Source: Fimicolochytrium jonesii (lineage: Eukaryota). From it: DNA of 64,000 nucleotides. The stretch covers positions 1,054,001-1,118,000 of the forward strand of contig NW_026515668.1 of NCBI RefSeq assembly GCF_025526975.1, written 5' to 3'. This document shows, one piece after another, positions 1 through 54,799 of the stretch (its first letter is position 1; each line of letters opens with the position of its first letter). Position numbers and translations under genes: made by a program. The notes beneath the pieces are model-generated. The model was given only the letters and a program-made list of their open reading frames with translations. It made no database searches and was not told where the DNA came from.

Positions 1-1196
1 GATGACCCGAACGCAGAAGCGCTTCGCCTGTTCAATCAGCACGTGCTGTCCGACAAGCGAGTCTCAGTAGTTGTGCTTCCCATTCGCGACGGTGTGAGTG
101 TGATCACTCGGCGAAGGTTTGTTCCTTTCTGCTTTCCACCTTTAATGAGGCCTGCGTAACTCGTCTTATGCCCTTCCTCTTAGCAGTCAGCAACCCGATG
201 CATCGAGCGATTCCGTCATTTTAGGCGAAGGAGGACTTGACATACTTCAACGACTAAAACTTTCGGACAAAGTATCCCTTGTGACTGGTGCGGGGCAGGG
301 AATTGGAAGGGCATTCGCGCATGCGCTGGGCGAGGCTGGTGCGGCCGTCGCTGTGGTCGATATAGCGAAAGTCAAGGCAGAAGTGGTGGCGAAAGAGTTG
401 AAGGCTAAGGGCATTAGGAGCATAGCTGTTGGAGCCGATGTTACGAAGAAATCAGATTGTGTTCGGTGAGCAATGACGTATTGCATCCCATCGATGTTCC
501 TGACACTAATGTCCAATGTTCCAGAATGGTCGAAGAAACTCTCACTGCGTGGGGCCACCTGGATATTGCGGTGAATAACGCCGGAGTGAACTTCAACGGT
601 GCTGCGGAAGACATTACCGATATTCAGTGGGATACAACGTTCAATGTCAACACGAAGGGCGTGCTCTACTGCTGCCAGGTCCGCGCTGCCTCCTCAATAT
701 TGGCAAAATTGGTATGGTGCTGACTCAAGATGTTCCGACAGGCTGAGGCGAGATACATGCTACAAAGTCAGCGACCTTGCTCCATCATCAACACCGCGAG
801 CATGGCCACTCTTCTTGTGCCGCACCCGCAGAAACAGGCGGCATATAATAGCAGTAAAGCTGCCGTTGTTAAATTGACGCAAAGCCTTGCGGTCGAATGG
901 GCTGACCGAGGCGTACGAGTAAACGCTATCAGTCCTGGAATCGTAAACACTGCTCTGATCCAGGTTGGTAGTAGCATTGGAGCGCTTCACGTCGTAGATG
1001 TGCTGACGACAAATATCCGGAACAGGAAAACCCAGATCTCAAGCCTCTCGTGAAGACTTGGCTGGGCCAAATCCCGCTGAATCGCCTTGCTGAGGTTACA
1101 GATCTGCAGGCGGCCGTAGTGTATTTGGCCTCGGATGCAAGCTCGTATCTAACTGGGCAGAACTTAGGCATTGAGGGAGGACAAAGTGTGATCTAA
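1..1196 (+). CDS. O-methyltransferase / short-chain dehydrogenase fusion (MT-Ox-like, gadusol-pathway type); 5' partial
   Basis: Frame 1 from base 1 reads [38 protein letters not shown], a CCoAOMT/MysB-type O-MT C-terminus. A GT-AG intron (117-183) joins it in frame, with no stop, to an SDR domain: [29 protein letters not shown] catalytic YxxxK, RVNAISPG, and the end [15 protein letters not shown] at 1196. Further introns at about 466-524, 679-741 and 964-1025. Confidence 0.85.
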
Positions 1197-1999
1197 GCTC
1201 TGAAGTATATTGCCTAGATGCTCATGCAATCCCCATCTTGGTTCCTGGCATTGCAGTTTTCATGCTCGGATATTGAGGAAACACTTCCATTTAGCCCGCT
1301 GCAGCGCGCCATCATGGGAGAATCCTTGCTCTCAATCAACAGGGTTCATTTGACAGGTCCCAAAGACGACGCGCTGTCGATTTCTCTCACGGTTTCGATT
1401 TTCCGCTATTATTTTCCAATGACGTTCAGATATCCCGTTGTGCCGAACCTGACGTCCACCTTGCGTATTCGTATATAACGGAAGCAGATTCTCTTTGTTT
1501 TCCTGCCGCGCGCGCGGCGTCAGCAAAAGTATCCCGAAGCATGAGTATCATTTGACACAGAGTGTCAAATATATGGCGCCTTCGGTATTTGGGCGGTCAA
1601 CCAGTGGGGTAGCGGCGTAGGCTGTGAGGATCTCTCTGAGTTATCGTCGCTCGGTATGGCGTACGTTTGCCCCAAGTGAGAATGAAGTAACGTTTATAGC
1701 TATATCCCCTCATTTTCGGTATTCGACAGCTTACAACATGGACGACAACGTGACAAGTCTACCGCCTTCGTCATTAGGATGTCACACCCGACGGCTATAG
1801 GCGAAGGTGAACGAAGATGTGCGGAGAGGGAAGCAGGAGAATGCGACTTTGATGGGAGCTTTTCCGCTCCGATGCCATGGCATGGATCCTTGACGAGGGG
1901 GATATAGGATTGGGCATGTTCGAGCGCCCCGGCGTGTGAGCAAACAGCAGCCGTTCCCGAAGTCCATGCACAGGCCGATTGCCTTTTTTAAAGCGAATC

Positions 2000-3489
2000 A
2001 TGGGGCCCCTCAAGGAACAAACCACGCTGTCCACGAAGCTTTGGACTGTCATACAAACGATATCGGTGCTGGTTCTTCTGCAATGCGTCTTACTGCCCAT
2101 CAACCTTTGGATCTGTTCGACGACCGACGTGTTTCGCGTTTTCGCATCCCCGATCCGCCGCTCCAAGTTCCGTTCTCATGACTTCGCTTCTCCCCAGAAG
2201 ACGGTTCTCATTGACGGGGGCCGACTTTCCAAGGGGCTCCTACTCGCCCGGCTTTGCAAACAAGCAGGCTACCGTGTGATCTACACCGCCACGCCGCAAA
2301 CATGCTTTTCGGGTGCCCGGTTTTCCCGAGCCGTCGACAGATTCTACGTGATCCCCAATCGAGCAAACGATGATTACGTAGCGTGCGAAAAGGATGTGAT
2401 GAAGATTATGCGCAGGGAAAAGGTCGACGTTTACATGCCGGTCAGCACAGCTAGCTCGGCGGTCGGGGATAGCAACATCGCGGACAGTGTCCGGAGGGCT
2501 GGGCATCGGGCTGTAGCGTTGGGAAGTGCGGATGCACAAAGGTTGGACGATAAGCACCTGTTCGGGCAATGGGCGAAGGAGGTTGGGTGTGATGTGCCGG
2601 TAAGGAAGCGGAATCATGTTTCGATGAGTCGTTTCATTTTGACTGATCGGAACATCAGGAATCGCATCAAGTCACATCTCCCCGAGATATGCTCGTCACT
2701 CTCGCGAAGCTCTCGTCCGGCAGCACTGAACCCTCGCGCTTCCAACTCAAGAGCATTCAATACGATGACACGCATCGCACGGAGACCGTCTGCTCGTCAG
2801 AGGTGTCCAAGCCTGAAGTGCAAGCTAGAGTTCTGTCGTTGCCCATCAGCAGAAGCACACCGTATCTCATCCAGCGCCACATCAGTGGCAAAGAGTACTG
2901 CACCCATGTGCTTGCGCTCTCCGGGGATGTATTGGCTTTGGCGATATGCCCCTCATCGCCCTGGCTGTTGCAGTACAAGCATGTGGAGCACGCGGGCATT
3001 AGCGCATGGGTGAAGCGGTTCGTGCGCAACACGGGATTGAGTGGGCATGCCTGCTTCGATTTCATTGTTGAGGACGGGACTGAAATCGTGTATGCGATTG
3101 AGTGCAATCCCCGGGTTTCAACCGCCATCGCTTGTTTCAGGGGTTCTGAGCAGTATGGCAAGGCATTGGACCATTTCCTCGATAACCCGAAGGCGGAAGA
3201 ACATTCGGCTGACGCAAGCACGATCACACCGCATCATTCTATGGTAGCCCAGCACTGGCTATACCATGAACTGCTGTATGAGTTGCCCCGAACATTCTGG
3301 TCGCCAACAGCTGCGCTCAATCGCATCCTCTTCATCGTAAAGAATGAGGACGCTTTGTATGATTTCGATGATCCATGGCCGTTCTTTGCTCAAAATCATT
3401 TGCTAATCCCACAGCAGTTGCTGTGGCATCTCTGGCATCTGAGGCCGTGGACCCACATAGATTACAACCTCGGTCGCCTGATCGATTGA
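2000..3489 (+). CDS. mysC: ATP-grasp amino-acid ligase, MysC (mycosporine-glycine synthase) family
   Basis: Two exons (intron 2600-2658). Motifs match cyanobacterial MysC as recalled: LLPINL, KTVLIDGGRLSKGLLLAR, RFSRAVDRFYVIP, LDDK, LKSIQYD, GKEYCTH, FDFI..DG..YAIECNPR, WLYHEL, DDPWPF, WTHIDYNLGRL. Confidence 0.88.
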
Positions 3490-3967
3490 TGAACTGCGCA
3501 TTGTAGCGTGTAAATATCTTCTACAATTACATCTACTGTGACATTTGCCAAAGACGAATTATGTGCGGTTCCAGAAGCCCCACTTGCACATGTACATGTA
3601 GATGCCCGCGATGCGTACGCCGTACTTTCAAGTTGTGTAGCACAGGAAGGCTGGAGCAGGCTTCTTAGAGAGTACGGCATGTTATAACTGCAGCTCATGC
3701 CGAGCTTCTCCGGTGGGTGCCGCTTTCATTGCGGCTCGTCTCTTGTAGTTCGTCGGCAGTAGCTCACGCAAATCGTCAGCTACCACCATCGGAGAGGTGT
3801 GCCTAGCCGAGATCGTGACAACGAGAGATTTTCAATCGTCAGATCCATGAAGGCCAGCGGCTGTGACCATAACCATCTTGACCGTGTTCATGATGGAGAA
3901 GACGTGAGGCAATCCGTGGGAGGTCTGGAGTTCAGCAATAGCATTTTCCTGTTATCCGGAATGAAGT

Positions 3968-5986
3968 TTATCCGGAATGAAGTACGGAGTGCGCCTAGGA
4001 AATAGGAGCGATGAGTCAGCAGTCGGAGTTGTCGAGCATCGTCCAATATAGAGATCCCTCACCTGCACGCATCCCAGCGAACAATACCGATACATGAACT
4101 TCTCAAACGGCGTGCAGTTCGACAATGACTTGCCACAAGCCGCACACTGATTCATCCGTCCCCTAATCCGAGCCTCAGCCGCCAACGCCCTCTTTTCCCG
4201 ATCAAGCGCCATCCGCTGCTCCGGTGTCAGCCCAATCATTTCCCGTTCGGTTTTGTTCAGTTTCGCCAAGAGCGGTCTCCCACTGGAGGAGGACTTCTGC
4301 GGTTCGGGCTCGGGCTCGGACGCCGATTCCTTCTTTGCCGCGTTGTATGCCTTCTGCTTTTCTTTTGCTTTCTTCTTTTTCTCCTTTTCCTTTTCCTTTT
4401 GTTGCTGTTCCATTTCGGGTGTCAAGGGACCGGGTACGTGAGCTTCTTTCCAGTCCCACCGCTCGGGCTCTTTTGCCATGTGGCGACGGAATGCATCACG
4501 CGTTTCCTTCGAACTTGCTGCATCGTATGGCCTTAGACTCTTTTTTTCCGCAGCTTTGGTTGGGTCGGCACCAAGGTCGAGAAGGAACGCGACAAGCTCA
4601 GGATGGTTGTTGCTCGACGCGATGTACAAGAAGCTGGTCCCTGCAGAATCAGGCAGAACCGCGTTGATATCGAACGTCGGTTTCGATTGCAAGAACCCCT
4701 GTACAACCTCGATTTTGCCTCGTTTGCACAAGTCGGCGAGCTTAACCAGCTCGGGGTCCAGCGCCGGCTCCTCCGCTTTCGGCTCCGACGTCGCCTGAAG
4801 CGCTGGCGAAGACCTTCCTGAGACGGGAGCTTTTGGCTTTGGCGGAGCTAGCGTTGCGGGTTCAACCTCTTTGATATCCTCGATAGTCACCGTGGACAGC
4901 TCCTTGAAACATCTCATCAACTCTCCATGCGTCGGACGTCGGGTGGTGAATGGGAAGGATCGGATCCTTTCATCGGCACTACTCAATGGGCTATCCTCGA
5001 AGAACAGAGTCCGCCTATTCTGAACGGATGAGCGGATGAAAATCAGCTCGCTGCCTTCAATTTCGCTTCTCCATTGAAGCAACAGATCGTGGATGTCATC
5101 CTGGAAATGCCAACCCATTGTCAGCGGTCCCGCCACGCGAAAGTACGGCTCAGATCATTACGTACCTTCAGAGCCTGTTCATTGTATCGACGGAGCATGG
5201 CTCCCGCACTTTTGGCGGAACCTTTCGCGCTGTCGTTCCTAAACCAAGCGTTAGGCATGATTCCCCATCACGACGCACACTCATCCGCAACACATACTTG
5301 CTCTGGGCTCCTCCTTGCTTTCTCCTCGTCGTATACCGATGGAAAGTTTTCTGCACCACAGACTTTCCCGACGCGCAATCGATAACCGTCCCCGCAAAGT
5401 GCCCCGCTCCCAACATGAGTAGCGTCCAATGCGTCTTTCTCATATCCCCATCATGAAGCTTCTTGACCACGGAGGCGCGGTCCAGTCCAGCAAACCTCTT
5501 TTCGCCCGACACAATCTGCCTAAAGAGCCTCAGCGCCTTTTTATTATCCGGCAATGGAAGCAGGATATACGGCGAGCCTCGTTCTATCTGTCGTCCCGAC
5601 GCCTTACGAGATGCGGTATCATCGTCATCACTCTCGCTGTCGGAGTCGCTCGCATCGATACTGCTGACTTCCTCAATCTCCTCAAACTCGGCCTCTGAAA
5701 CAGGAGAGCGACCGGCGACCTTTCGCTGGAGGTTATATCTATGCCAGTCTGCTTTGTAATGTTGGCGCATATCATCGCTGGATGTGAAGGTGACCCCGCA
5801 GGTACTACATGACGTCTGGGTCCCGATCGGATTGTTTTCGGCAACGCTCTTTTCCACTGGCCGGGCCGTCTCTTGTGCTGCCTCGACCTGGACGCTGGAG
5901 CTGATGGCATCTACCACGGTCGGTAGGAGTTGCTGAAACTGCTTGCCGAACAAACTTAGAACTTCTGGCTGTCCTCTGACCACCAT
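3968..5986 (-). CDS. VMS1: Vms1/ANKZF1 ribosome quality-control tRNA-releasing factor
   Basis: C2H2 finger CSTC...HYKADWHRYNLQRK; VLRF1 motifs GHFAG and KTFHRYTTRRKQGGAQS; ankyrin repeats; coiled coil; C-terminal CxxC...YCSLGC treble clef. Spliced from ORFs 5168..5986 and 3952..5136. Confidence 0.9.
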
Positions 5987-6570
5987 TTTACTAGTCAGCT
6001 AGGAAATAACTAATCAGAGGACGCTGCAGGGGAACGGGAGAGGTAGGTAGAAGTAGAAGTACGGCAGCGACGGTGTTTTTGAAGTGCTTTCCGCAATGAC
6101 AGCAGGCTCAAATGGACCGGTTATCCTCTGTATTGCCCTCGCGACGGACCCGCGTCTGCCGAATGTGAGCGCTGAGGTTATCCTGACCCAACATGGGAAC
6201 CCGAATCCTCCGAATCCGCACTTCGATACACGCCTGCCTATAACGACGTGAAAGACGGGCCAGATGCCACTGATCTTCGATGGTGATAAATCGAGTTCGT
6301 AGGTATCAGGATGCGCTCCAAGTGCGATGATTGATGACGAAGTAGATCTCGGACGTTCTCCAATCCTTCCAATCCTCCCGGGTTGGAACCCAACACTCGA
6401 AATTTCGACCCACAAGTTGTATTCTTCTCTTTCGACATGAACTCTCATGCATAGATCTTAAGACCCACGACCAGTAACGCTACGCTCCTGTTGCAGCTGG
6501 GTCATCCTAGACTCCCCTAGGTCTAATCCTGTCTTTGTATATGTACAAGCTCATGAAGTTCTCCTTGCTC

Positions 6571-25695: not shown

Positions 25696-28600
25696 ATGCC
25701 GTCGTATATGGAAGAGGGGGAGTTGAATTTGCTGGAGCAAGGGGAAATGGCCAGACGGGTTCGGGAGTTCAACTGGGCAACTACAGGGGTTGGGCCAAGA
25801 GATAAATGGCCTGCGGTTCTAGCAACCGCTGTTAATATGATCTTGGCTATTCGTTTCCCGATCGTCATCTTCTGGGGTCCTAAATGTGAGAAGGCTTCAG
25901 CTACACTTTCGCTGCCTTGGTGCTTTGCTAATCCGATTTGTTTCCGACACCAGATGTTACGATATACAACGATGCTTGTAGGAAGCCTGTCATGCTCTTG
26001 GTCATAATACCTCTTCAATGACTGATCGAAATGCCTTCAACAAATATATAGATATTGATGTACTGGGACCGAAACACCCATGTCTGGGGCGCACTGGAGC
26101 TGATGTCTATGAGGAGTTCTGGGCACAAATCCTTCCGGTACTGTGTTTGAACACCCAAAATCGGTTGGAGGAACAGTCTAAGCTGACCTCCGGATACTAG
26201 GAATTCAAACGTGCCGAGCTGGGAGGGTCGGTGCTTCAATACGATCGCCATCTGCCGATGTTGAGACGCGGTTACCTGGAAGAGGTAAGGGGCAGATACG
26301 ACCTTCAACTGTGAGACTTGGGACTCACTTCAGATGTATCCATCAAGACCTACTTTGTGTATACCTTGTCCCCGCTTTCTGATTCGGATGGGGTGGTGCA
26401 AGGAATCATTGGGCCATCATTTGGTAGGATCTTTATGTCGTTCATTCGCGGGTATCGCCTACTGACGCCCGTGCTATCGAGCAGAGGTCACCAAAAAGGT
26501 CTTTCAGGAACGAAGAGAAGCCTGTTTGCGAGATTTGGGGTCCAAATGTGGAAAAGCGCACACTGTCAGCGATGCCGTAGGCATGGCTTCTGCGTCGCTT
26601 CAAGACGCAAAGGCCGATTTTCCATTTGCGTTGGTGTACTTGATAGAGGGAGAGGAAGATCAAGCACAGGTAGCTATCAAGGAGTCTTGCTGGCCGCGAC
26701 GTTCCATTAAAAGGTTTGACAATCCCTCCTTTGCATAGGCGGTTCTGAGAGGCAGTTCTGGGATACCAATGACGCACCATCTTGCGCCATCGGGGATACC
26801 ACTGGGAAGGAACTTCGCAGGCAGCGGCATTTGGCCTATTCGCGAGGCTATAACCTCAGGGGAAGCGTGCGAGATCTATGATCTGAATGATCCTTCGTTA
26901 CCTGGTGGCATTTGGGAAGAGACGCCTACAGAGGCGATTGTGCACCCATTGTATGGAACGCAGCTCGATATAATAGGCTGCTTGGTCATGGGATGCAACC
27001 CGCGGCGACGGCTCGACCAGGACTACCGGAACTTCTTCACGTTGGTTACTCGTCAAATCGGGGTCAACATTGCCGCTGCTCGGAATTACGAGGAGGAAAA
27101 GAAGAAGCAGGAAGCTTTAGCGGCCATTGACAGGGCAAAGACGGCCTTCTTTAGGTTCGTTCAAACCAGTCTGGCGCAATCGCGCGGCACAATGTCCTAC
27201 TGACTCCCGATTTCAGCAATGTCAGTCACGAGTTCAGAACTCCTTTGACTTTGATCTTAGGTCCGCTCGAAAAAGTCTTGCGGGAAAACGAGGACCTTCC
27301 AGTCGGAGTCCGTGAGGAACTCGGGATAGCACAGCGCAATTCGCAACGACTGTTGAAGCTGGTCACTTCGCTGTTGGACTTCTCCCGAATCGAGGCCGGT
27401 CGCATGCAGGCATCGTTTAGACCGGTGGATTTGGCAGCGTTTGTCAGCGATCTCGCAGGAGTGTTCCGGTCGGCTATTGGTCGGGCGCAATTGGAATTTC
27501 GCATGGAAGTCCCACCATCAGGACGCATTGCATACATTGACACGGATCTATTCGAAAAAGTGATTTACAACATGCTTTCGAACGCAATCAAGTGCACGCT
27601 CAGAGGCAGTATCACGGTGGGTTACAGAGAAACGGACGCGGGCCCGGAAATCACCGTCTCGGACACGGGATGTGGAATCAAATCTGAAGATTTGCCTAAG
27701 GTTTTATATCTCTTTGTTGTTGCGTGCTGAAACGTGTTCATCATACTGAACCTCATCATAGATTTTTGACCGATTCTTCCGAGCTGAAGCGACTGAAAGA
27801 CGGTCCACCGAAGGCAGTGGTATCGGACTGGCCTTGACGCAGGAATTGGTACACTTGCACGGAGGTCAAATCCGTGCGGAATCCAAAGTTGGAAGCGGGA
27901 CTTCCTTCGTGGTAACACTCCCTTGGGGCAAGTCACATCTCGCCAAGGAAAGCGTTACCGAGGTCGTGAACAGCCAGAGCGATCTTGTTACGGGCGTAAG
28001 GGATCAATTTCTGGAAGAGGCGATGGGATGGCTTGGAGACGCTTCCTCCGAAGAGAAACCGGCTACACCTGAAACGGAGGCTGAGAAGTCTGAGACTACC
28101 CACGCATACCCGGTGAGCACAGGCTCTGGGCAATCGACACCATTGTTCAGGCCTCCCAGCCTGCCACGGAAATGGACAGCAACAGGCGCGCACCACATTG
28201 CAAGCGCTTCGAAGACGTACATTCTCGTGGCCGATGACAATCGCGACATGGCCTTTTATGTGAAGAAGCTCCTGAGCCCAATCGCTCGCGTCCACGTGGT
28301 TCACGACGGGGAGCAGGCATTAGCGCGGTGTCGCCAGTATCCTCCGAGTCTCCTGCTTTCAGATGTAATGATGCCTAAAATCGACGGTCTTGAGTTGGCA
28401 AGAGCGGTTCGCGCGGACAAGTCGCTGAACTTCATCCCCGTCATTCTGCTTTCGGCTCGTGCGGGCGAGGAGGCTAAAGTAGAAGGGATGGGGACCGGAG
28501 CCGATGATTACATGTAAGTCTACTGCGCAGAGGCTGTCGAACCGAGGAACTTTTGCTGAAGATTACTCTTTTCAGGTGCAAACCCTTCTCCGCCAAAGAG

Positions 28601-31180
28601 CTGATTGCCCGAGTACGCGCTCATCTTGAGTTGGGGAGACTGAGAAAGGAGCTGTTTGAGTTTGCCAACATCTGCCCAGTGGGAATCATGCGAACAGACG
28701 CTGCAGGAGGGAATATTTTCCGCAGTACAAAGATGCAGGAACTCAGTGGAACGGCCGCGCATGATCTGTTCCTGCAGAACGTGGTACGTATCACATCCCA
28801 AGCATTCCCGCCGTCTGAGAGCCGCGTACACCATAATGATACCGATTCGCACATGTAGCATCCGGATGATATCCAATACGTAATGGAAAGCTGGGATGAA
28901 TGCCGACGGCAAAAGGACCCAGGTCACATCGAATTCCGCTACCAGCATCCTGATGGTCGGGTTGTGTGTGTCCTGTCGCAATGGACGGCGGAAGTAGACG
29001 AGTCAGGCAGAGTCATAGGTAAGCCTTCACGGTGCATCTTGGTGTCGACGGGTAAAACCGGGGCAATGGATGGTCCATCTCAAACCCCTCTCTATATAAA
29101 CAGGATTCGTTGGGGCTATTACGGACATCACTGAGCGTACTCAGATGCAGCAGAAGCAGCTGAAAGAGGTCAGGGTCAAAACTCAACCGGGAGTCGACGT
29201 TTCTCTCAACTCACCTCATGGATTATCGCGTTACACGCAGGTTGAAGATGACCGAGTAGCTTTGGATCGGCTCATTGACATGATCTGCCATGAAGTGAGT
29301 TTTCTTTGGCCGCCGTCTATCTGAGTGCGGACATTAATGACAAGTTCTCCGGCAGATCCGGAATCCATTGAATGCTATCTACAACAATACAGATCTGTTG
29401 AGAACAGGGGTGCAACGACGCCGTGATATTCTCGCAAGAATCCTCTCTGGCGCCACATACAGTATAGACTCAGCCACCGATCAAGTAAGCATCAGCCAGA
29501 GAATTTTTTTTAGCTTCCGAATATCATCACTCACTCGTTGATCTAGTTTGCTTTTGACGAAGAGTGCCTCGACGCCATTGAAAGCGCTGCGCGACATCAG
29601 CGAGTCATTGCCGATGACGTGCTGCATCTATCCAAACTCAGGAACGGGCCAATGGCTATGAACAACAAGCTTTTCGACCCACTAGAGATATTGGGCAGCG
29701 TCGTTCAGATGTTCAGGGCGGAATGCGTCAACAAGGGCGTGAAGCTTGACACTGAGGTTGAATGGGAAGTTGGCCAGGTGTGGGGAGATCCCGCTCGAAT
29801 CAAGCAGATCCTCATCAAGTAAGTCCATAAATCCATATGACGTCCATATGAGGAAGACACTGGACTGCTACAGTTCTCAACGCCAGAAAGTAACACCTGT
29901 CGCGCAGCTTATTGTCGAACGCGGTGAAGTTCACGCAACACTCGGAGAAGAAGAGCATCATTCTCAGAGTCTATCAACTACAGAGTGAAGAAGGGTCCTC
30001 GCTGCGACTCGCTTTCAAGGTCATTGATACAGGTACGTCGTGCGTGGCTCGAAATACTACGTATATCAAGCCTAAACTGACTTGGACACTTAACCACTGT
30101 GTGCGTTAATAGGCATTGGGATGTCCGCCGCCGCGCAAGGGGTGAGTTGTGAAGCGATTGTCCACTGAAAATGCCAAGTTTATTTGATAAAAATACTCAA
30201 TGGTTTTGCTTTACAGAAACTTTTCAAACGCTTTTCCCAAGTTGGCCTTCGGACGCATCAAGATTATGGAGGCAGCGGTTTGGGCCTTCATATTTCTAGG
30301 TGAGGATTGCAAGCCAGATACGGATTTTGTGAAGAGCTGTCATTACAAGTGCTGATCCTTCCGTCTTTGGCAGGCAAATGATCCAAGTGATGGGTGGAGA
30401 AATCGGGGTAGAATCCGAGCTGGGCAAAGGAACAACATTCTGGTTCTACGTCTGTGTGGAGTTAGACCAGAAAGAAGACCTCGGAAGCGATCACGGTGAC
30501 AGCGTAGGGTCGTCCATAACTGCGAAGCAACCCCCGAACGGGATGGATCTGAGCAAAACCAAAACGGACGCGCCCGTGGAAGCTGTCAACGGTCTCTCGC
30601 CGACTAAGGAAAGCGACCGTGGCACGCCGATTTGCGTGCTTGTAGTGGAAGACAACCTGATCAACCAGCGAGTCATCAAACGCCAACTCGAGCTTGCGGG
30701 ATACAAGACTTATTTGGCGAACGACGGCTCGGAAGCCGTGATGTTAGTGAACTTACATCGGGAAGAAATTGATGTCATCCTGATGGATGTCGAAATGCCA
30801 AGTAAGTGATGGTTTTGGTGGGATGCAACGCGAGCAGATCGTGTGAACACCTGCTGACATATCTCTCTTCAGTTATGGACGGCATAGAAGCCACCCGCCG
30901 CATCCGACAAAGCGAGTCGCATCCCAACAGCTCGCCAAATGTCGGTGACACAGTGGGGACACAAAAGTCTGATGGCGAAGAATTCGCGAAAAACGAGCTA
31001 TGCCCGTCATCGCTTCCGATTCTAGGTCTGAGTGGCAATGCGCGCACGGAGCATCGCGACGTAGCGGTTCGTGCCGGCATGAACGATTACGTTGTGAAAC
31101 CGTACGAGAAAGCGTCACTCTTCAAGCTGATAACATCGTATGCGACCAAGCGAAGAGAGAATAGAGAGTTGTGGACATGA
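25696..31180 (+). CDS. dual-transmitter hybrid histidine kinase (PAS/GAF-HisKA-HATPase-REC-PAS-HisKA-HATPase-REC)
   Basis: H-box 1 SNVSHEFRTPL, N-box NMLSNAIK, G-boxes DTGCGI and GSGIGL; REC1 LSDVMMPKIDG. H-box 2 MICHE|IRNPLN, then LSNAVKFT and GGSGLGL; REC2 EDNLINQ...LMDVEMP. Many short introns. Confidence 0.9.
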
Positions 31181-40643: not shown

Positions 40644-40849
40644 TGCACCGCCGCAAATGTTGTAGGGCGAATAAGGCTGTGAAAAGAAGGTTAAGTGAAA
40701 TACAGTGAACGGGGGTCGGTGTCAGCCCTACAGACTTGGTCTGAAATGAAACCGAGTCGGACACCGCAATGGCCTTACCTGAGCAAATTGCGTTGCAGTA
40801 AGGAGCTCAGTATACTGTTGGTGGTTTTCCGAGTAAGACTTGAGCGGAA

Positions 40850-43800
40850 ATGTCCAGAAGGGGAGGAAGAAGGGCATCGGCTGCCCCCAGCTCCGCCAGT
40901 TCAAGACGCGAAGGGCCTTCACGCGAAGTCGAAGACGACGTTGCGCAGGACGCAGCATTGGTGGCAGCCCAGGACCCGCAGAATGCGGAAGTACCAGGGA
41001 CTGTCGGAGAGGCAGCGCAAGGCGCTTCTGTCGCGGAAAGTACAGGGTCGACTGAAGCGCGATCGCAACCCGACCTTGCTTCGGATGGTTCGGGCCCATT
41101 AGCGACGACGACATCATTCAGCGTCATAGCACCGACAGATGCGCCCGCTGTGGGGGCGGACACCTCGCAGGAAAGCTTGGCGAAAGATGTAGATCCCTCA
41201 GCGAACCCCGAAGCAGCGCTCTCACCTGCTGCCGCTCCGAGTGCGCTTGTCACAGAACCAACGCCGACGCAGCCAGAGACTGACAAGCCCGAGGTCGACG
41301 ACTTGCCGGGAGCTGAGGACAAACGACACCATGATAGCCTGTATCTAGCGATGGAGTTGGAGTATGATGAAACATGGCAAGACATTGCAGATATGAGTTC
41401 GTTGGGTCCTTTCCGATCAGAGTACGAGAAAATGCACCGAGCGGTGCTCAAATCGCGAAGCAATATCGAGAAGATGTATGGCCAATACGAAACATCGTAT
41501 CGGGAGTACTGTGTCAACCTGGTGCAGACGCAAGAGGCGAAAGAATCTTCCATACAAGATCAGCATATGATTAAGTCACTTCGCACACAGATCACAAAAG
41601 CGGAGGAGACGGTGGAGGCGAGCATGAAACTGGAGGAGTCCTTCAAGGAAGAGTTGCGGCAGCTGAAGATCGAAGTTGGCAATCTGAACGCAACTATGCA
41701 GCAAGGGGTGGGACTCAGTGCCACCCAAGAAAAGACGCTTCAGGAGCTCATACAAGCGAAAGAGCAGTCCACCAAGGAATTGGAAGAGGAGCTCGAGAAG
41801 ATCGTCCACCTGCGGAATAGCATAGCCGATGTCTCCGAACGAATCAAAATGGCAGACCAGCAAAAGCGCGAACTCGAACGCGAGATCTACGAACTTCGTG
41901 ACAGGAGCGCATCGAAGAAAGCTGAAATCGATGCCGAGCTTCGGATAAAAGAGAAACTGGAACGAGATTTGCGCGAGTTGCGGGTGGTTGTCGGTGTGAA
42001 GTTGCAGGAAGTGAGGGGAAAGCAAGACGCGGTAAACCGTGCCACGGATGATATTACCATAATCGAGTCTCAAATCCGAACTCAGAGGCAGATGACCGAG
42101 AAGCTGGTCAAAGATGAAGAAGCGCTGAACATCCGAATGGACGCGTTGCAGATCGAAGCGAACGAGCAGATGGAGCTCACATCGGATTTGATGGAGCAGA
42201 ATGTCTTGATGGCGAGCGAGCTGCGGCGGCGGGAAGGCCAGTTGGAGAAGAACCTGAGCGAGGTCAGGAAAGTGGCCAAAATCAAGGACGCGCTAGTGAA
42301 GAAGCTGCAAGCCTGTGAGGAGCAAAAACTGGAAGCCGAGCTTGAGCGTAAAGACATTCGGTTGGAATGCGAAGGGAAACTCGACACTATCGAGGCCACC
42401 AAGCGTCAAATCGACGTGCACAAGAAAGCAATGGACGATTTGACGAGAGAGCGAGACTTGATTGAGAATAACTTCCACAAGGCGCAATCCGAGCTCAATG
42501 CTCACGAGCGCATGATCCTGCTCTGCAAGCAGACTCGGCATAACATCGAGCTTGACATTGCACGCTACAATCGCGAATGCACCGATCAGACAAAGACCAT
42601 CAAAATGCTACAAGCAGAGCGGGATGGGTACATTGCAGAGTCCATCAAACTGCAAACTGCATGCGTTGCGGGCTTCCAGGAAATTAAGAGCAAGGAGGTG
42701 GAGCTCTTCGATTACAAAAAGCGCACGAGCCAGGCAGACACGAAGCTCAAACACCAGCAGAACTTGTACGAGGCTGTGCAGAGCGATAGAAACCTGCACA
42801 GCAAACATCTTATTGAAGCACAGGCAGAGATAGCCAAAATGAAGCGGAGGTTGAAAATTATGAATTTCCAAATCAACGGCTTCAAAGAAGATATCAACTC
42901 GAAACAGCAGGCTCTCACCGCCGAAGCAGCAGAGCATGCAAAGCTGCAAAAAGATATCGAGATCATATCGGAGGAGATCGCGACTTTGCAGCATCAGAAT
43001 GATCTCGGCCAGGCCTACATCCGATCACAGAGCGCCGAGGCCAACAAGCTCAACCAGTTTGTGAAGGAAGCGGAAATGGAGCGATCGCGGCAAGAAAACG
43101 CACTGAAGATTCTCGTAACGGAGCGCGACAACCTGAGCAACCAACTGATCAAACAGAACGGGGAGCTAGAGAAAGCCTATGACGCACTGAAGTTACGGCA
43201 GGCATCCCTTCTGTGCAGTGAAAGGCACTTTGCGGCGCATATTGAGAAGATCTCTGAGCTCCGCCGGGAGATATCGAGACTCAGGCGAGAAAAAGCTGGC
43301 CTGGATCTTGAATCTTCTGCTCACCTTAACACGCAGGAAACTGCCCGTCACCTCGAAACCGACCTCCTCACGCAGCAGATGCGGATCAAAGCCCTCGAAG
43401 ACCAGCTCAAACACCGCATCAACGTCCACCGCTGGCGCAAACTCGAGGGCAAAAACCCAAAAGTCTTCGATATGATCCTACTCCTGCAATCCTTGCAAAA
43501 GAAGCTTATCATGAAGTCTCAGGAGGAAAATGACAAGGAGAAGCTGATACACAGCAAAGAGATGCTGTACCTGTACCTCAAAACACTGCTTGCCAAGCAA
43601 GTCGGCCCCGAAGCCCTCGAGCAGATTTCAGAGTACCAACAGATCCTAAAAGATAAAAACATGCAGTTCAGACACATGGGCACCGAGCTGAACATGTACC
43701 AAGCGCAACTGCGAGAATATCGATACGAGATTTCCCAGTTCGACAAAACCATGCAAGTGCTCAAGTCACAATACTTGGTGGAGCATCGGGATCGAGGGAT

Positions 43801-44296
43801 GAATAACAGTCCTGTGGGGAAGAAGAAGATCAGAGCCGCGGTGGGAAGTGGGAAGTTCCCCAACGGGCCGCCTCCACCGCTTCTGCCGTCGATGGATAGG
43901 GCCGACGCCAACCGGACGCCTCCGTTGAGGAGTCGAGCGTCGGAGGTGGACGTTGCACCGGAATCGCAAACGAGCGGGCCTGAACCGATGATTGCGGAGC
44001 CGGCGGAAAGATCTCTCGCACCGACGGACGATGTCGCATATGGTCAGGCACCACTGGGCGATGACCTTGCACCGCAGGATGAACCCGCTCCGCCGCACGA
44101 TGATCCGATAGCAGAACAGGCGGAACAGGACCTCCCACTGTTTGCCTCAGAGGATGATGGGCCGAGCTCTGCTGCGAGCCCTGAGGCGCATGATTATGAG
44201 AACGATGGGGAGGCGCGGAATGCAGATACGCAGGCGTCCTCGTCGCCGGTAGTTGAGGATGACGACATTGATGCGCCAATACAGCAGCTATCCTGA
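40850..44296 (+). CDS. CFAP58: cilia- and flagella-associated protein 58-like (CCDC147)
   Basis: 1148-aa coiled-coil ORF with KLKHQQNLYEAVQSDRNLHSKHLIEAQ and NVHRWRKLEG. Confidence 0.85.
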   Translation: MSRRGGRRASAAPSSASSRREGPSREVEDDVAQDAALVAAQDPQNAEVPGTVGEAAQGASVAESTGSTEARSQPDLASDGSGPLATTTSFSVIAPTDAPAVGADTSQESLAKDVDPSANPEAALSPAAAPSALVTEPTPTQPETDKPEVDDLPGAEDKRHHDSLYLAMELEYDETWQDIADMSSLGPFRSEYEKMHRAVLKSRSNIEKMYGQYETSYREYCVNLVQTQEAKESSIQDQHMIKSLRTQITKAEETVEASMKLEESFKEELRQLKIEVGNLNATMQQGVGLSATQEKTLQELIQAKEQSTKELEEELEKIVHLRNSIADVSERIKMADQQKRELEREIYELRDRSASKKAEIDAELRIKEKLERDLRELRVVVGVKLQEVRGKQDAVNRATDDITIIESQIRTQRQMTEKLVKDEEALNIRMDALQIEANEQMELTSDLMEQNVLMASELRRREGQLEKNLSEVRKVAKIKDALVKKLQACEEQKLEAELERKDIRLECEGKLDTIEATKRQIDVHKKAMDDLTRERDLIENNFHKAQSELNAHERMILLCKQTRHNIELDIARYNRECTDQTKTIKMLQAERDGYIAESIKLQTACVAGFQEIKSKEVELFDYKKRTSQADTKLKHQQNLYEAVQSDRNLHSKHLIEAQAEIAKMKRRLKIMNFQINGFKEDINSKQQALTAEAAEHAKLQKDIEIISEEIATLQHQNDLGQAYIRSQSAEANKLNQFVKEAEMERSRQENALKILVTERDNLSNQLIKQNGELEKAYDALKLRQASLLCSERHFAAHIEKISELRREISRLRREKAGLDLESSAHLNTQETARHLETDLLTQQMRIKALEDQLKHRINVHRWRKLEGKNPKVFDMILLLQSLQKKLIMKSQEENDKEKLIHSKEMLYLYLKTLLAKQVGPEALEQISEYQQILKDKNMQFRHMGTELNMYQAQLREYRYEISQFDKTMQVLKSQYLVEHRDRGMNNSPVGKKKIRAAVGSGKFPNGPPPPLLPSMDRADANRTPPLRSRASEVDVAPESQTSGPEPMIAEPAERSLAPTDDVAYGQAPLGDDLAPQDEPAPPHDDPIAEQAEQDLPLFASEDDGPSSAASPEAHDYENDGEARNADTQASSSPVVEDDDIDAPIQQLS

Positions 44297-50371: not shown

Positions 50372-50792
50372 TGAGTGATACTTCTGGTCACCTCCCAACC
50401 CTCAGAGCGTTCGCATGCAGTCCAAATGCCGCCACCGTCAATGCGGAGATTGAGGAATGTGGCTTGGTGCGGTCGATGACTCACGCGTCTCTCTGTTGGG
50501 GCGTACCATGAGCCGAGTGGGTGGTGTGGGTGTCTGTCTCCCCCCAAAAGATGGCCCGCCCATTAACCCCTCCCTCGGAGTCCCTCATGCAAGTCCTAAT
50601 GCGTGTCTTGTGGGAAGGAAGCCGCCCGCACCAGCGGGAATTCATGCTAATAGCGACATTCTCATACGGCGCGTCGCATCAACAATCCCCCCTCCCGCAA
50701 GCCTTGCAGGGAGACCCTCGCATTACCTTCTTCAAGCCTATTGGATTCTGTCGCCCGTAGGAGTTGGAGAAGAGCCGTTCCAAAAAAGTTAT

Positions 50793-53700
50793 ATGGTAGA
50801 TCCCACGACAAAGCCGCAAGGAATGTTGTCGGTAGCAGAGATCTCCACGTACCCGGTGGGCAAGGTGCCCGGCCAGGGTGCAAAAGTTGAAGCCTACCTT
50901 CGCAAGTCGCTGCAGGAGCGAATCATGTTCATCGACGGTGCCATGGGAACAATGATTCAGCGATACAGGTTCTCCGAACAGGATTTCAGGACGGAACGGT
51001 TCAAGGACCACCCGAAGGACTTCTTGAAGGGCAATAACGACTTGCTGTCCATCACCCAGCCCAAAGCAATTTACGAGATCCACTGCAAATACCTGGAGTC
51101 CGGGTCGGACATGATTGAGACAAACACCTTCTCCTCGACATCGATCGCACAGGCCGATTATCTGATGCAGGACCTCGTTTACGAGATGAACATCGAGTCG
51201 GCGAGATTAGCAAAGAAGGCTTGCGAGGAGTACACGAAGAAGGATCCCTCAAAGCCACGTTTCGTCGCGGGTGCCATCGGTCCCACAAATCAAACGTTAT
51301 CCATCTCTCCGTCAGTCGAGAACCCGTCATATCGTGCGACAACCTTCGATGCCATGGTGGCTGCCTACGCCGAGCAGGTGCGAGGTCTACTGGATGGTGG
51401 CTCTGATGTCTTGCTGGTTGAGACGATTTTCGACACATTGAACGCTAAAGCCGCGCTATACGCCATCGACGTGGTGTTTGAGGAAGATGGGTACGACAGG
51501 GTTCCCATCCTGGTGTCTGGAACGATTGTTGACCAATCTGGACGTACGCTGTCTGGTCAGACCGGAGAGGCTTTCATTGCCTCCGTCGGTCACAGTGATC
51601 CATTGGCCATCGGACTCAACTGCGCTTTGGGTGCCGACCAAATGTTGCCATTCCTGCAAAACATCTCCAAGAACAACCCCACTTTCATTATCTGTTATCC
51701 CAACGCCGGTCTTCCCAACACCTTCGGAGAGTACGACCAATCACCTGCGGACATGGCAGAGCAGGTTCGACCGTTCGCCGAGTTGGGACTTCTGAACATC
51801 GTTGGAGGATGTTGTGGTACCACCCCCGACCACATCAAAGCGATCGCAGACATGTGTAAAGGATACGCACCCCGTGTGCCGCCCACGATAGATCCGGAAA
51901 CGTTGATCGTATCCGGTCTCGAGACACTGAAGATTAACAAGGAAACTGGATTCGTTAACATCGGAGAGAGATGTAACGTCTCCGGTTCCCGAGTGTTTGC
52001 AAAGAAGATCTTGAACGGAGCATACGAGGAAGCCCTCGCCATCGGACGAGCCCAAGTCGAAGCCGGAGCGCAGGTCATCGACATCAACATGGATGAAGGT
52101 CTCTTGGACGGCAAAGTCGCCATCGCAAAGTTCCTTAACTACATCGCCTCCGAGCCCGACATTGCAAAAGTCCCCATCATGGTCGACTCGTCGAATTTCG
52201 AGGTCGTCCTCGCCGGTCTCAAATGCGTGCAGGGGAAATGTATCGTCAACTCGATCAGTTTGAAAGAAGGTGAAGCCGATTTCATCAAAAAGGCGAAAAT
52301 CGTTAAGCGCTTCGGTGCCGCTGTCGTCGTTATGGCGTTCGATGAGACCGGTCAGGCCGTCGAAGCGCAGCGCAAGTACGAGATTTGCGCGCGGTCGTAT
52401 AAGATCCTGACGGAGGTTTGTGGGTTCAAGGGGTGTGAGATTATCTTCGACCCCAATATCCTGACTATCGCGACGGGAATGGAGGAGCATAACCACTACG
52501 CTGTGGAGTTTATTGAATCCAACCGCTTGATCAAGGCCAACCTCCCCGGTGCCAAGATCAGCGGAGGTGTCTCCAACCTGTCGTTCTCCTTCCGTGGAAA
52601 GGAGGTACTCCGTCAGGCCATGCACAGTGTGTTTCTGTACCACGCCATCAAGGCCGGGATGGACATGGGTATCGTCAACGCTGGTTTCCTGACCATCTAC
52701 GACGATATCCCCAAAGACCTTTTGGAAATTTGCGAGAACGCCATCTGGAATAGGGACCCCGAGGTGACCGAGAAGCTTCTCGCCTATGCCGAGACGCACG
52801 GAAAGGACTCGACAAAGTCCGCTGCTGAGGCTGAGGAGTGGCGCAAGGAAGACGTGGAGCAGAGGTTGAAATACGCGTTGGTCAAGGGGATCACCAAACA
52901 CATCATCGAAGACACCGAGGAGGCCCGGCTGAACAAGGAACGGTACCCGCGACCACTGAACGTCATCGAAGGCCCCCTCATGGCCGGCATGTCCGTCGTC
53001 GGAGAACTCTTCGGCGCCGGCAAGATGTTCTTGCCGCAAGTCATCAAATCCGCGCGTGTGATGAAGAGCGCCGTGGCGCATCTGATCCCGTTCATGGAGG
53101 AGGAGCGGCTGGCCAACCTGGCTGCGGGCGGGATCGACGACAGCGATCCGAATGCGGCGTATAACGGGACGGTTGTCCTGGCGACTGTGAAGGGTGATGT
53201 GCACGATATTGGCAAGAATATTGTTGGGGTTGTGTTGGGATGCAATAACTATAAGATTATTGATTTGGGCGTTATGACGCCTTGTGATAAGATTTTGGAC
53301 GCTGCGATCAAGGAGCGCGCGGATGTGATTGGGTTGAGTGGGTTGATTACGCCTAGTTTGGACGAGATGGTGTACGTCGCCAAGGAAATGGAGAGGAAAG
53401 GATTGAAGGTTTGTAACGAGCGATGGGTGAGCTGTCATAGCAGAACTCTATGCTAAAGTGTGCTATGCGTACAGATCCCTCTCCTGATCGGCGGTGCCAC
53501 AACATCCAAAATGCACACCGCCGTAAAGATCGCCCCCCGCTACTCCGAACCCGCCGTGCACGTCCTCGACGCCTCGCGGTCCGTCGTCGTAGTGTCCAAC
53601 CTCCTCGACGGCAAGGTCCGTGAAGACTTTGTCGACGACATTGCAGACGAATACGAGGACCTGCGTGCCGAGCACTACGAAGGGCTGAAGGATCGGCGGT

Positions 53701-54799
53701 ACCTGACCCTCGACGAGGCGATGAAGAAGCGGGCAAAGATCACCTGGGACCAGGCCACCGTGCCATGCAAGCCCAAGTTCTACGGAAGCAAGTCGTTCAA
53801 GGAATACGACATAAAGTCGCTGATCCCATATATCGACTGGAACCCCTTCTTCCAGACATGGCAGCTGCGTGGAAAGTACCCCAACCGTGGGTTCCCCAAG
53901 ATCTTCAACGACGAAACCGTCGGCGAGGAAGCAAAGAAGCTGCACGACGACGCCATGGAGATGCTAAACACCATCGTCGAAGAGAAGATCCTCTCCGCGC
54001 GTGCCATCATCGGGTTCTGGCCCGCAGCGTCGATAGGCGAGGACATTGAGATCTTCTCCGACGACAAGAACCTTAACACACCGGTCGCGACATTCTACGG
54101 GCTCCGTCAACAAGCCGAGAAGGACGCAGATAACGACGAGCCATACTACTCCCTCTCCGACTTCATCGCGCCCAAAACAACCAAGATTCTCGACCACGTG
54201 GGCGCATTCGCCGTATCCTGCGGGTTCGGCGTCGACGAGAAATGCGTCGAGTACGAGAAACAGCACGACGATTACAGCATCATCATGCTCAAAGCCCTCG
54301 CGGACCGTCTCACCGAGGCCCTGGCGGAGGTCGTGCATGCGGATATCCGGAAGAACTGGTGGGGATATGCGCCGGAGGAGGATCTGTCCCCGGAAGAGAT
54401 GCTGCAGGTCAAGTACCAGGGCATTCGGCCGGCGCCGGGGTACCCCACGCAGCCTGACCATACGGAGAAGGAGACGATGTGGAAGTTGATGGAGATTGAG
54501 AAGGAGACGGGGATTGGGTTAACTGAGTCTCTGGTGAGTAGGATGAGCCAGTGTATTTTATCACCGCCTTCGACTGGGATCTAGATTCTGATGATGTCCT
54601 CTCTCCCTCCTCATCCACACAGGCCATGACACCAGCAGCCTCCGTTTCCGCCATCCTCTTTGGCCACAAGGACGCCAAATACTTTGCCGTCGGCAAAATC
54701 GCAAAAGATCAAATCAACGCATATGCCGCGCGAAAGAGCATGGAGGTGCATACCCTTGAACGGTGGCTTAACTCGAACTTGTCGTATGATGCGGAGTAG
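50793..54799 (+). CDS. metH: cobalamin-dependent methionine synthase
   Basis: [34 protein letters not shown]12-binding [10 protein letters not shown]...SGLITPSL, and reactivation domain GIRPAPGYP. Introns near 53410-53473 and 54534-54622. Confidence 0.97.

What the first reader, a model, noticed from the sequence alone, without database searches (positions are those of the whole stretch)
1..1196. MT-Ox-type methyltransferase/oxidoreductase fusion hidden by an intron
Seen: the ORF track shows only SDR fragments, but removing intron 117-183 joins the O-MT C-terminus ([14 protein letters not shown]) through a short linker to [33 protein letters not shown]. From memory, the stretches [12 protein letters not shown], VPHPQKQxxYNxSKA and [16 protein letters not shown] closely match vertebrate MT-Ox and not generic fungal SDRs. 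MT-Ox is not a standard fungal gene. Inference: either horizontal transfer (for example from an algal host) or an old opisthokont origin, which bears on where vertebrates got the gadusol genes. The introns and fungal neighbours argue against bacterial contamination.
Basis: partly seen in the sequence, partly recalled or inferred. Interest (0 to 1): 0.8.

Follow-up and report, generated by a model that had tools for sequence, protein, structure and literature searches.

The report
Fungal MT-Ox sunscreen-pathway fusion gene
The window opens inside a real, intron-split gene of a flagellated (chytrid-like) fungus that fuses a methyltransferase to a dehydrogenase and is a full-length, 50%-identical relative of the fish enzyme MT-Ox, so the fungus would likely make the sunscreen gadusol; its nearest non-fungal relatives are green-algal, which likely reflects an old gene transfer and not shared animal-fungal ancestry.

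Summary
Window 1-1196 (+) holds the last five exons of a 566-aa O-methyltransferase + SDR fusion protein. The 67/70-nt GT..AG intron at 117-183/186 joins the two domains in frame, and the SDR frame has no start codon of its own.

The protein is a full-length homologue of MT-Ox:
- 49.6% identical to the Danio rerio protein over 554 aa
- 53-57% to green-algal proteins
- 63-69% to proteins of the chytrids Thoreauomyces and Rhizophlyctis
- 57% to the ascomycete yeast Saitoella

The window also carries CFAP58 and B12-dependent MetH, so the organism is probably a zoosporic fungus.

In an ML tree the fungal proteins form one clade (100/100) that groups with green algae (99/98). They do not group with animals: the AU test rejects fungi+animals (p = 0.0008). 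Whether fungi sit inside green algae is not settled (p = 0.107).

The next gene (2000-3489) is a MysC-family ATP-grasp ligase. I therefore predict a gadusol, or gadusol-core mycosporine, pathway. No EEVS gene is visible, because the window starts inside the MT-Ox gene. There is no transcript evidence.

This is a new member of a known kind. My nine searches found no paper on fungal MT-Ox.

The parts
1..116 (+). Exon holding the C-terminal end of the O-methyltransferase domain of MT-Ox. The gene starts upstream of the window; this exon corresponds to about residues 252-290 of the 566-aa product P0001.
   Evidence: Pfam Methyltransf_3 positions 166-203 of 204, E 1e-4. Identical to P0001.
117..186 (+). 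Intron between the MT and SDR domains. The donor is GTTTGT at 117. Both are in frame and differ by one Ser.
   Evidence: With the intron retained, frame 1 stops at 157-159.
187..465 (+). Exon holding the interdomain linker and the N-terminal Rossmann part of the [11 protein letters not shown] lies at 284-307. The following AVAVVD Asp suggests NAD preference; that rule is recalled general knowledge of classical SDRs.
   Evidence: adh_short E 6.9e-13; alignment A1.
466..524 (+). Intron, 59 nt, GTGAGC..CAG.
525..678 (+). SDR exon with the NNAG motif at 574-585.
   Evidence: adh_short E 6.1e-10.
679..741 (+). Intron, 63 nt, GTCCGC..CAG.
742..963 (+). SDR exon with the catalytic Ser (799-801), Tyr (844-846) and Lys (856-858), in the stretch [15 protein letters not shown].
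   Evidence: adh_short E 1.6e-17. These columns are conserved in A1.
964..1025 (+). Intron, 62 nt, GTTGGT..CAG.
1026..1196 (+). Last SDR exon, ending in the TAA stop at 1194-1196.
   Evidence: adh_short_C2 E 7e-10.
2000..3489 (+). Neighbouring gene for a MysC-family ATP-grasp ligase of 476 aa. Exons are 2000-2599 and 2659-3489 (stop at 3487-3489), with a 59-nt intron at 2600-2658. The N-terminus is hydrophobic.
   Evidence: Pfam ATP-grasp_3; NCBIfam NF005315. It is 48% identical to the Rhizophlyctis rosea protein P0325 and 34-36% identical to ATP-grasp genes that lie between mysB-like and mysD-like genes in 6 of 6 metagenome loci examined.

Best explanation
Window 1-1196 is the last five exons of a 566-residue O-methyltransferase-SDR fusion gene that is a full-length homologue of vertebrate and algal MT-Ox, and it is predicted to oxidise (NAD+) and methylate (SAM) 2-epi-5-epi-valiolone to gadusol.

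Shown directly:
- the exon-intron structure;
- the two domains and their motifs;
- the fusion: the SDR has no start of its own, and every close relative has the same architecture;
- the placement inside the MT-Ox family;
- a fungal, probably zoosporic, genomic setting.

Inferred:
- The chemistry, by homology to the zebrafish enzyme that Osborn et al. 2015 tested in vitro and in yeast.
- The presence of an EEVS partner somewhere in the genome.
- That the MysC-family ATP-grasp ligase 0.8 kb downstream would add an amino acid to the gadusol core and give a gadusol-type mycosporine, as was proposed for green algae.

History (inferred): fungi hold one MT-Ox lineage, found in chytrids, Saitoella and three unnamed sequences. 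It is nearest to core-chlorophyte green algae. It was most likely gained by transfer from a green alga and lost in most fungi.
For: Gene model and missing start codon.

Domains.

The window's own fused 566-aa product, P0001, is in the protein collection.

Full-length hits (687 proteins at E<=0.001, best 120 listed):
- Thoreauomyces 69%
- Rhizophlyctis 63-64%
- Saitoella 57%
- green algae 51-56%
- fish zgc:113054 proteins 49-51%
- Danio P0161 at E 2.8e-154; blastp gives 49.6% over 554 aa.

The 12-sequence alignment A1 has 139 invariant columns. These include the SAM, DADK and VDN motifs and the SDR motifs, and the alignment runs continuously across the junction.

Careful ML tree (36 rows, 559 columns):
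- fungal clade 100/100;
- fungi plus green algae against animals, haptophyte and Vitrella 99/98;
- core chlorophytes plus fungi, excluding prasinophytes, 94/93.

The AU test rejects fungi+animals (p = 0.0008, delta lnL 59.7).

Domain trees rooted with bacterial SDRs or MysB put the root outside the fungi-plus-green group.

The neighbouring ATP-grasp belongs to the MysC family.

Zoosporic-fungus markers CFAP58 and MetH lie in the window.
Against: - No transcript evidence. No RNA run was listed, so the splice is supported only by sequence logic and by orthologues.
- No EEVS or other sugar-phosphate cyclase lies in the 62.8 kb downstream (Pfam on ORFs of 150 aa or more; tblastn best E 0.22). Upstream DNA and the rest of the genome could not be read.
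- The SDR domain alone is 55-63% identical to bacterial stand-alone SDRs. In 4 of 4 loci examined these sit in sugar-catabolic loci and not in cyclitol loci. The SDR sequence by itself therefore does not fix the substrate.
- MT-Ox and the ATP-grasp lie on different contigs in one Rhizophlyctis rosea assembly, so the adjacency is not conserved there.
- A tree with all green algae as one clade and fungi outside is not rejected (p = 0.107).
- The domain trees are quick searches with modest support.
Confidence: 0.8

Rival explanations
1. The fusion is real but works in a DDGS-type (classical fungal or cyanobacterial) mycosporine pathway. In this reading the MT domain acts like MysB on desmethyl-4-deoxygadusol, and the SDR domain does a different redox step, so gadusol is not the product.
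For: - The neighbour is a MysC-family ligase, as in mysABCD and DDGS-OMT-ATPG clusters (PMC10057719, abstract and found passages).
- The MT domain is 37-39% identical to MysB of such clusters.
- A Dikarya double OMT (Rhodosporidiobolus, P0187) falls in the same MT-domain group, though on a long branch.
- No EEVS was seen.
Against: - The protein is about 50% identical over its full length to the zebrafish enzyme, whose activity on EEV was shown (PMC4426668, passages).
- Green algae carry the same MT-Ox plus ATP-grasp combination together with an EEVS (PMC7826186, passages).
Confidence: 0.12
2. MT-Ox was inherited vertically from the common ancestor of fungi and animals.
For: - The gene occurs in both animals and fungi.
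- Within fungi the topology (chytrids against Saitoella plus unnamed sequences) fits old vertical descent inside the kingdom.
Against: - The split of fungi plus green algae against animals, haptophyte and Vitrella has 99/98 support.
- The AU test rejects a fungi+animals clade (p = 0.0008).
- Both rooted domain trees agree.
Confidence: 0.05
3. There are two separate genes, an O-methyltransferase ending at the stop at 157-159 and an ordinary polyol-dehydrogenase SDR. The 'intron' would then be an intergenic spacer.
For: - Stand-alone MT (P0199, P0215) and stand-alone SDR (P0182 and 35 bacterial loci at 55% identity or more to it) exist elsewhere.
- There are no RNA data.
Against: - No ATG lies in the SDR frame before the NAD-binding motif.
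- The spacer would be under 70 nt.
- The canonical splice sites and intron size match the other three introns.
- All 4 named fungal relatives, and the algal and animal relatives, are fused with a collinear linker.
Confidence: 0.03
4. Algal DNA was mis-assembled into a fungal genome, that is, contamination.
For: The closest non-fungal relatives are green algae, including Trebouxia.
Against: - The gene lies on a 2.24-Mb contig next to CFAP58, MetH and other genes, with uniform short introns.
- Its closest relatives are proteins of three other fungal species in independent assemblies, and together they form a 100/100 clade.
Confidence: 0.02

Closest known systems
Vertebrate MT-Ox (zebrafish zgc:113054), second enzyme of the EEVS + MT-Ox gadusol pathway (Osborn et al. 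2015, PMC4426668)
   Same: - Same two-domain order: Methyltransf_3, then a classical SDR.
- Similar length (566 against 551 aa).
- 49.6% identity over 554 aa to the Danio protein P0161.
- All SAM, metal and SDR catalytic motifs are conserved.
   Different: - The host is a fungus.
- The protein belongs to a separate branch that groups with green algae.
- Its neighbour is an ATP-grasp ligase, which the vertebrate locus lacks according to the paper's gene maps.
- An EEVS partner was not seen here.
Green-algal EEVS / MT-Ox / ATP-grasp / O-MT neighbourhood (Foflonker and Blaby-Haas 2020, PMC7826186)
   Same: - The MT-Ox is 51-56% identical (Trebouxia, Coccomyxa, Elliptochloris, Tetradesmus).
- These are the nearest non-fungal branch.
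- MT-Ox is linked to a MysC-related ATP-grasp, which predicts a gadusol-core mycosporine.
   Different: - Only two of the four genes are visible in the window.
- The algal ATP-grasp could not be compared with the window's. No algal hit appeared in the length range searched, 151-483 aa.
- The organism is a fungus.
Dikarya mycosporine cluster DDGS-OMT-ATPG (Phaffia rhodozyma, PMC10057719) and bacterial mysA-B-C-D
   Same: - A Methyltransf_3 O-methyltransferase with the same N-terminal extension (37-39% identical to MysB).
- A MysC-family ATP-grasp ligase (34-36% identical), adjacent and on the same strand.
   Different: - Here the OMT is fused to an SDR, which those clusters lack.
- No DDGS or MysA lies in the window.
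- No MysD-like or NRPS gene is present.
Bacterial stand-alone GolD/DthD-like polyol SDRs (for example the relatives of P0182 in Streptomyces, Patulibacter, Seinonella and Verrucomicrobiae)
   Different: - They have no MT domain.
- They sit with sugar ABC transporters, a GntR regulator, an HpcH aldolase and an M24 peptidase in 4 of 4 loci examined.
- They fall outside the eukaryotic MT-Ox group in the SDR tree.

Membership tests
MT-Ox (bifunctional methyltransferase-oxidoreductase of the gadusol pathway) | N-terminal class I SAM-dependent O-methyltransferase domain (Pfam Methyltransf_3) | tested here: met
   Window 1-114 matches the end of PF01596. The whole product P0001 carries PF01596. The VLE(V/I)G-FTG, DADK and VDN motifs are conserved in A1.
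MT-Ox (bifunctional methyltransferase-oxidoreductase of the gadusol pathway) | C-terminal classical SDR with TGxxxGxG, NNAG and Ser-Tyr-Lys | tested here: met
   adh_short hits on all four exons. Motifs lie at 284-307, 574-585, 799-801 and 844-858.
MT-Ox (bifunctional methyltransferase-oxidoreductase of the gadusol pathway) | Both domains in one polypeptide, in the order MT then SDR | tested here: met
   The intron is in frame, the SDR has no start codon of its own, and the database product has the same join. This rests on sequence only; there are no RNA data.
MT-Ox (bifunctional methyltransferase-oxidoreductase of the gadusol pathway) | Full-length homology to the characterised zebrafish enzyme, and placement inside the fusion clade and not among stand-alone SDRs | tested here: met
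   49.6% over 554 aa to Danio P0161, E 2.8e-154. Trees.
MT-Ox (bifunctional methyltransferase-oxidoreductase of the gadusol pathway) | Partner EEVS gene in the genome, adjacent in vertebrates and algae | not testable with these tools
   The window begins inside the gene and no whole genome is held. None was found in the 62.8 kb downstream.
MT-Ox (bifunctional methyltransferase-oxidoreductase of the gadusol pathway) | Converts 2-epi-5-epi-valiolone to gadusol | not testable with these tools
   This needs an enzyme assay.
MysC (ATP-grasp ligase of mycosporine-like amino acid pathways), for the neighbouring gene 2000-3489 | ATP-grasp protein homologous to the genes that lie between mysB-like and mysD-like genes next to a DHQS-like cyclase | tested here: met
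   ATP-grasp_3. It is 34-36% identical over about 410 aa (E 1e-65 to 1e-79) to the ATP-grasp of 6 of 6 examined loci that hold DHQ_synthase-like, Methyltransf_3, ATP-grasp and D-Ala-D-Ala-ligase-like genes, the last three adjacent and in that order, the cyclase upstream in 4 loci and downstream in 2. That this gene order defines mysABCD is recalled knowledge.
Dikarya-type mycosporine cluster (DDGS-OMT-ATPG) | Stand-alone OMT next to a DDGS | tested here: not met
   The OMT is fused to an SDR. No cyclase lies in the window, but the upstream side is unseen.
   No start codon. It groups with the fusions.

The most novel reading that the evidence does not exclude
Zoosporic fungi and the yeast Saitoella keep a second fungal sunscreen route that is unrelated to the DDGS route of Dikarya. 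It is an EEVS/MT-Ox gadusol pathway captured once from a core-chlorophyte green alga early in fungal history. Together with the adjacent MysC ligase it makes gadusol-core mycosporines, natural 'gadusporines', perhaps to shield free-swimming zoospores or exposed sporangia from UV.
Probability: 0.35. Interest if true: 0.65.

Novelty: new member of a known kind. Interest (0 to 1): 0.5.

Why it matters
Gadusol synthesis through MT-Ox has been described for vertebrates and a few algae. Osborn et al. 2015 found only Aureococcus and Coccomyxa outside vertebrates.

A conserved, intron-bearing MT-Ox in chytrids and one early ascomycete adds a third kingdom. It gives a cheap, testable prediction: these fungi make gadusol or gadusol-core mycosporines. 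It also documents a probable alga-fungus transfer of a sunscreen gene.

It narrows the question of vertebrate origin only in a negative way, because the fungal genes are not the link to the animal ones.

The same data show that MT-Ox proteins are widely mislabelled ('D-arabinitol 2-dehydrogenase', 'hypothetical protein'). They also suggest that stand-alone bacterial SDRs may be over-annotated with the gadusol KEGG name.

Tried and rejected
- **Own genome:** not held. Upstream DNA and a genome-wide EEVS search were therefore impossible.
- **RNA evidence:** no RNA holder was listed for window 1-3600.
- my first exon 4/5 boundary was wrong. I corrected it.
- **MysC test through cyanobacteria:**
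  - 6 of 201 sampled genomes gave only weak hits (E 6e-8 to 6e-5).
  - The 3 loci I extended showed no DHQS-like or Methyltransf_3 neighbours.
  - NF005315 matches them below its cut-off.
  - This was a dead end, and the metagenome loci replaced it.
- **PDB:** no solved relative of the ATP-grasp at E<=0.01. There is no full-length MT-Ox structure. The best match is an SDR-only polyol dehydrogenase, 3awd.
- **Earlier scan notes:** nothing near the place, and two unrelated hits by sequence.
- **Literature:** these searches found no paper on fungal MT-Ox or gadusol genes:
  - MT-Ox+gadusol+fungi
  - gadusol+chytrid
  - MT-Ox+EEVS
  - mycosporine/chytrid/zoospore
  - gadusol/fungal/horizontal gene transfer/EEVS
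  - C7-cyclitol synthases
  - gadusol+Chytridiomycota
  - gadusol with genus names (only the top 10 of 68 were seen)
- **Limits of the literature check:** figure 5C and the supplements of PMC7826186, and subscription papers (Osborn and Mahmud 2019; Osborn et al. 2017), were not seen and may show fungal sequences.
- **Considered and rejected:** a lichen or 'algal host' setting. The window's markers point to a zoosporic fungus, and nothing indicates a host.

Full report
**What is in the sequence**

The window starts inside a gene on the + strand. Frame 1 of bases 1-116 encodes [38 protein letters not shown]. This matches the last 38 positions of Pfam Methyltransf_3 (positions 166-203 of 204, E 1e-4, 22.1 bits against a cut-off of 22).

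A GT at 117 and an AG at 182-183 bound a 67-nt intron. A tandem CAG at 184-186 gives an alternative 70-nt intron. Both join in frame to a linker and to [21 protein letters not shown]. Three further GT..AG introns (466-524, 679-741, 964-1025; 59-63 nt) complete a classical SDR:
- TGAGQGIG at 284-307
- NNAG at 574-585
- Ser at 799-801
- YNSSK at 844-858
- stop at 1194-1196

Each of the four SDR exons hits adh_short or adh_short_C2 (E 7e-10 to 1.6e-17). My first placement of the exon 4/5 boundary was wrong, and I corrected it.

**Is the fusion real?**

If the first intron were retained, the methyltransferase frame would stop at 157-159. The SDR frame (open from 149) contains no ATG before the NAD-binding motif. 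Its first Met lies in exon 3.

The protein collection contains the window's own product, P0001. It is 566 aa, lies on a 2,244,513-bp contig, and has the same join through the acceptor at 186 (RRSQQ).

Every close relative has the same architecture. A 12-sequence alignment (4 other fungal, 4 green-algal, 2 fish and 1 brine-shrimp protein) runs collinearly across the junction and has 139 invariant columns.

No RNA run was listed. The splice therefore rests on sequence logic and on orthologues.

**What family is it?**

With P0001 as query, 687 proteins reached E<=0.001 and the best 120 were listed:

| Relative | Identity to P0001 |
|---|---|
| Thoreauomyces humboldtii | 69% |
| Rhizophlyctis rosea (two proteins) | 63-64% |
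| Saitoella coloradoensis | 57% |
| Green algae (Trebouxia, Elliptochloris, Coccomyxa, Symbiochloris, Tetradesmus) | 51-56% |
| Fish proteins that NCBI names zgc:113054 | 49-51% |
| Artemia | 50% |

The Danio rerio protein P0161 is 49.6% identical over 554 aa. zgc:113054 is the MT-Ox that Osborn et al. showed to convert 2-epi-5-epi-valiolone to gadusol (PMC4426668, passages read).

They are nearly as well conserved in stand-alone bacterial SDRs such as P0182.

In 4 of 4 loci examined, those bacterial SDRs lie among sugar transporters, a GntR regulator, an HpcH aldolase and an M24 peptidase. They are 55-63% identical to the Ox domain. The diagnosis therefore rests on the fusion and on full-length homology. 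It does not rest on the SDR motifs.

The MT domain is 37-39% identical to MysB of bacterial MAA clusters. No MT-Ox structure is solved; the best PDB match is an SDR-only polyol dehydrogenase.

**Which organism?**

The window also encodes CFAP58, a flagellar protein (40844-44293), and a cobalamin-dependent methionine synthase (50454-54581). From general knowledge, both are typical of zoosporic fungi and absent from Dikarya.

The best hit is a member of the Spizellomycetales. I infer that the organism is a chytrid-like fungus and go no further.

**Evolution**

I built a careful ML tree of 36 full-length proteins over 559 columns. The long-branched frog and Lineus rows were left out (quick versions). 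It gives:
- One fungal clade at 100/100: (window + Thoreauomyces, two Rhizophlyctis) and (Saitoella + three unnamed sequences).
- A split of fungi plus green algae against animals, Gephyrocapsa and Vitrella at 99/98.
- A trichotomy of fungi, the Tetradesmus group and the Trebouxiophyceae. It excludes the prasinophyte pair (Pycnococcus; the cluster of P0127 contains Cymbomonas) at 94/93.

The AU test rejects a fungi+animals clade (p = 0.0008, delta lnL 59.7). It does not reject a tree with all green algae together and fungi outside (p = 0.107).

Two quick domain trees place the root outside the fungi-plus-green group. One is the SDR domain rooted with bacterial SDRs; five unnamed rows were dropped there by my motif filter. 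The other is the MT domain rooted with MysB.

Vertical opisthokont inheritance is therefore disfavoured. A transfer between a green alga and an early fungus is the simplest reading. Alga to fungus is favoured because the remaining topology follows green-algal phylogeny, but this direction is not proven.

The fungal genes are not close to the animal ones. They say little about the source of the vertebrate genes.

**Context and mechanism**

About 0.8 kb downstream, on the same strand, lies a 476-aa ATP-grasp gene (2000-2599 and 2659-3489). Its best named relative is a Rhizophlyctis rosea protein, 54% identical in the search and 48% over 473 aa by blastp.

Its bacterial relatives are 33-39% identical. 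In 6 of 6 metagenome loci examined they follow a Methyltransf_3 gene and precede a D-Ala-D-Ala-ligase-like gene, with a DHQS-like cyclase in the same locus (upstream of the methyltransferase in 4, downstream of the ligase in 2). I recall this gene set as mysA-B-C-D. The window's gene is therefore MysC family.

Green algae have an EEVS, MT-Ox, ATP-grasp and O-MT neighbourhood that was proposed to give gadusol-core MAAs (PMC7826186, passages). By analogy I predict the following route:
1. An EEVS makes EEV.
2. MT-Ox makes gadusol.
3. The MysC-like ligase adds an amino acid.

Steps 1 to 3 are inferred. No cyclase is present in the window, and the upstream side cannot be seen. In one R. rosea assembly the two genes lie on different contigs.

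The established fungal route is DDGS-OMT-ATPG in Phaffia (PMC10057719, abstract and passages). That route has no SDR fusion.

**Novelty**

The gene model is already in the protein collection, and the named fungal orthologues are labelled 'hypothetical protein' or 'D-arabinitol 2-dehydrogenase'. Nine literature searches found no paper that reports MT-Ox or gadusol genes in fungi. Figures, supplements and subscription papers were not seen.

I class this as a new member of a known kind, with an interesting distribution. The opisthokont alternative and the link to vertebrate origins are not supported.

Noticed in passing
window 2000-3489 (+): MysC-family ATP-grasp ligase gene with one 59-nt intron (2600-2658). 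It has a hydrophobic N-terminal stretch (LWTVIQTISVLVLLQCVLLPINLWIC) that the Rhizophlyctis orthologue shares. The window's own product did not appear in the 151-483 aa search.
   Followed up: yes
window 40844-44293 (+) and 50454-54581 (+): CFAP58 (a flagellar coiled-coil protein) and a cobalamin-dependent methionine synthase (MetH; the open frame is interrupted at about 53453-53457). Both point to a zoosporic fungus.
   Followed up: partly
window 26739-28514 (+) and 30333-30806 (+): Pieces of a hybrid histidine kinase (HisKA, HATPase_c, Response_reg) and a further receiver domain.
   Followed up: no
window 3955-5998 (-): Vms1/ANKZF1-like gene (VLRF1 release-factor domain split over two ORFs, plus a VATC treble clef). 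It is not part of the sunscreen locus.
   Followed up: no
proteins P0118 (Artemia franciscana), P0184 (Lineus longissimus), P0368 (Pseudophryne frog): Invertebrates carry MT-Ox. Artemia is sister to vertebrates at 100/98, which sits uneasily with a transfer into early vertebrates only. The Lineus and frog proteins keep the SDR domain but have a strongly diverged MT domain.
   Followed up: partly
loci L001, L015, L024, L026; protein P0064: Stand-alone bacterial SDRs 55-63% identical to the Ox domain sit in sugar-catabolic loci. One such 269-aa protein carries the JGI name '2-epi-5-epi-valiolone dehydrogenase / demethylgadusol O-methyltransferase', which is probably an over-annotation.
   Followed up: partly
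protein P0187 (Rhodosporidiobolus ruineniae, 593 aa): A tandem double O-methyltransferase with no SDR, 33-35% identical to the MT domain. Each half carries the same N-terminal extension.
   Followed up: no
loci L096 and L107: In two of the six MAA-type metagenome loci the DHQS-like cyclase is a 608-612-aa protein placed after the mysD-like gene, instead of a protein of about 410 aa placed before mysB.
   Followed up: no
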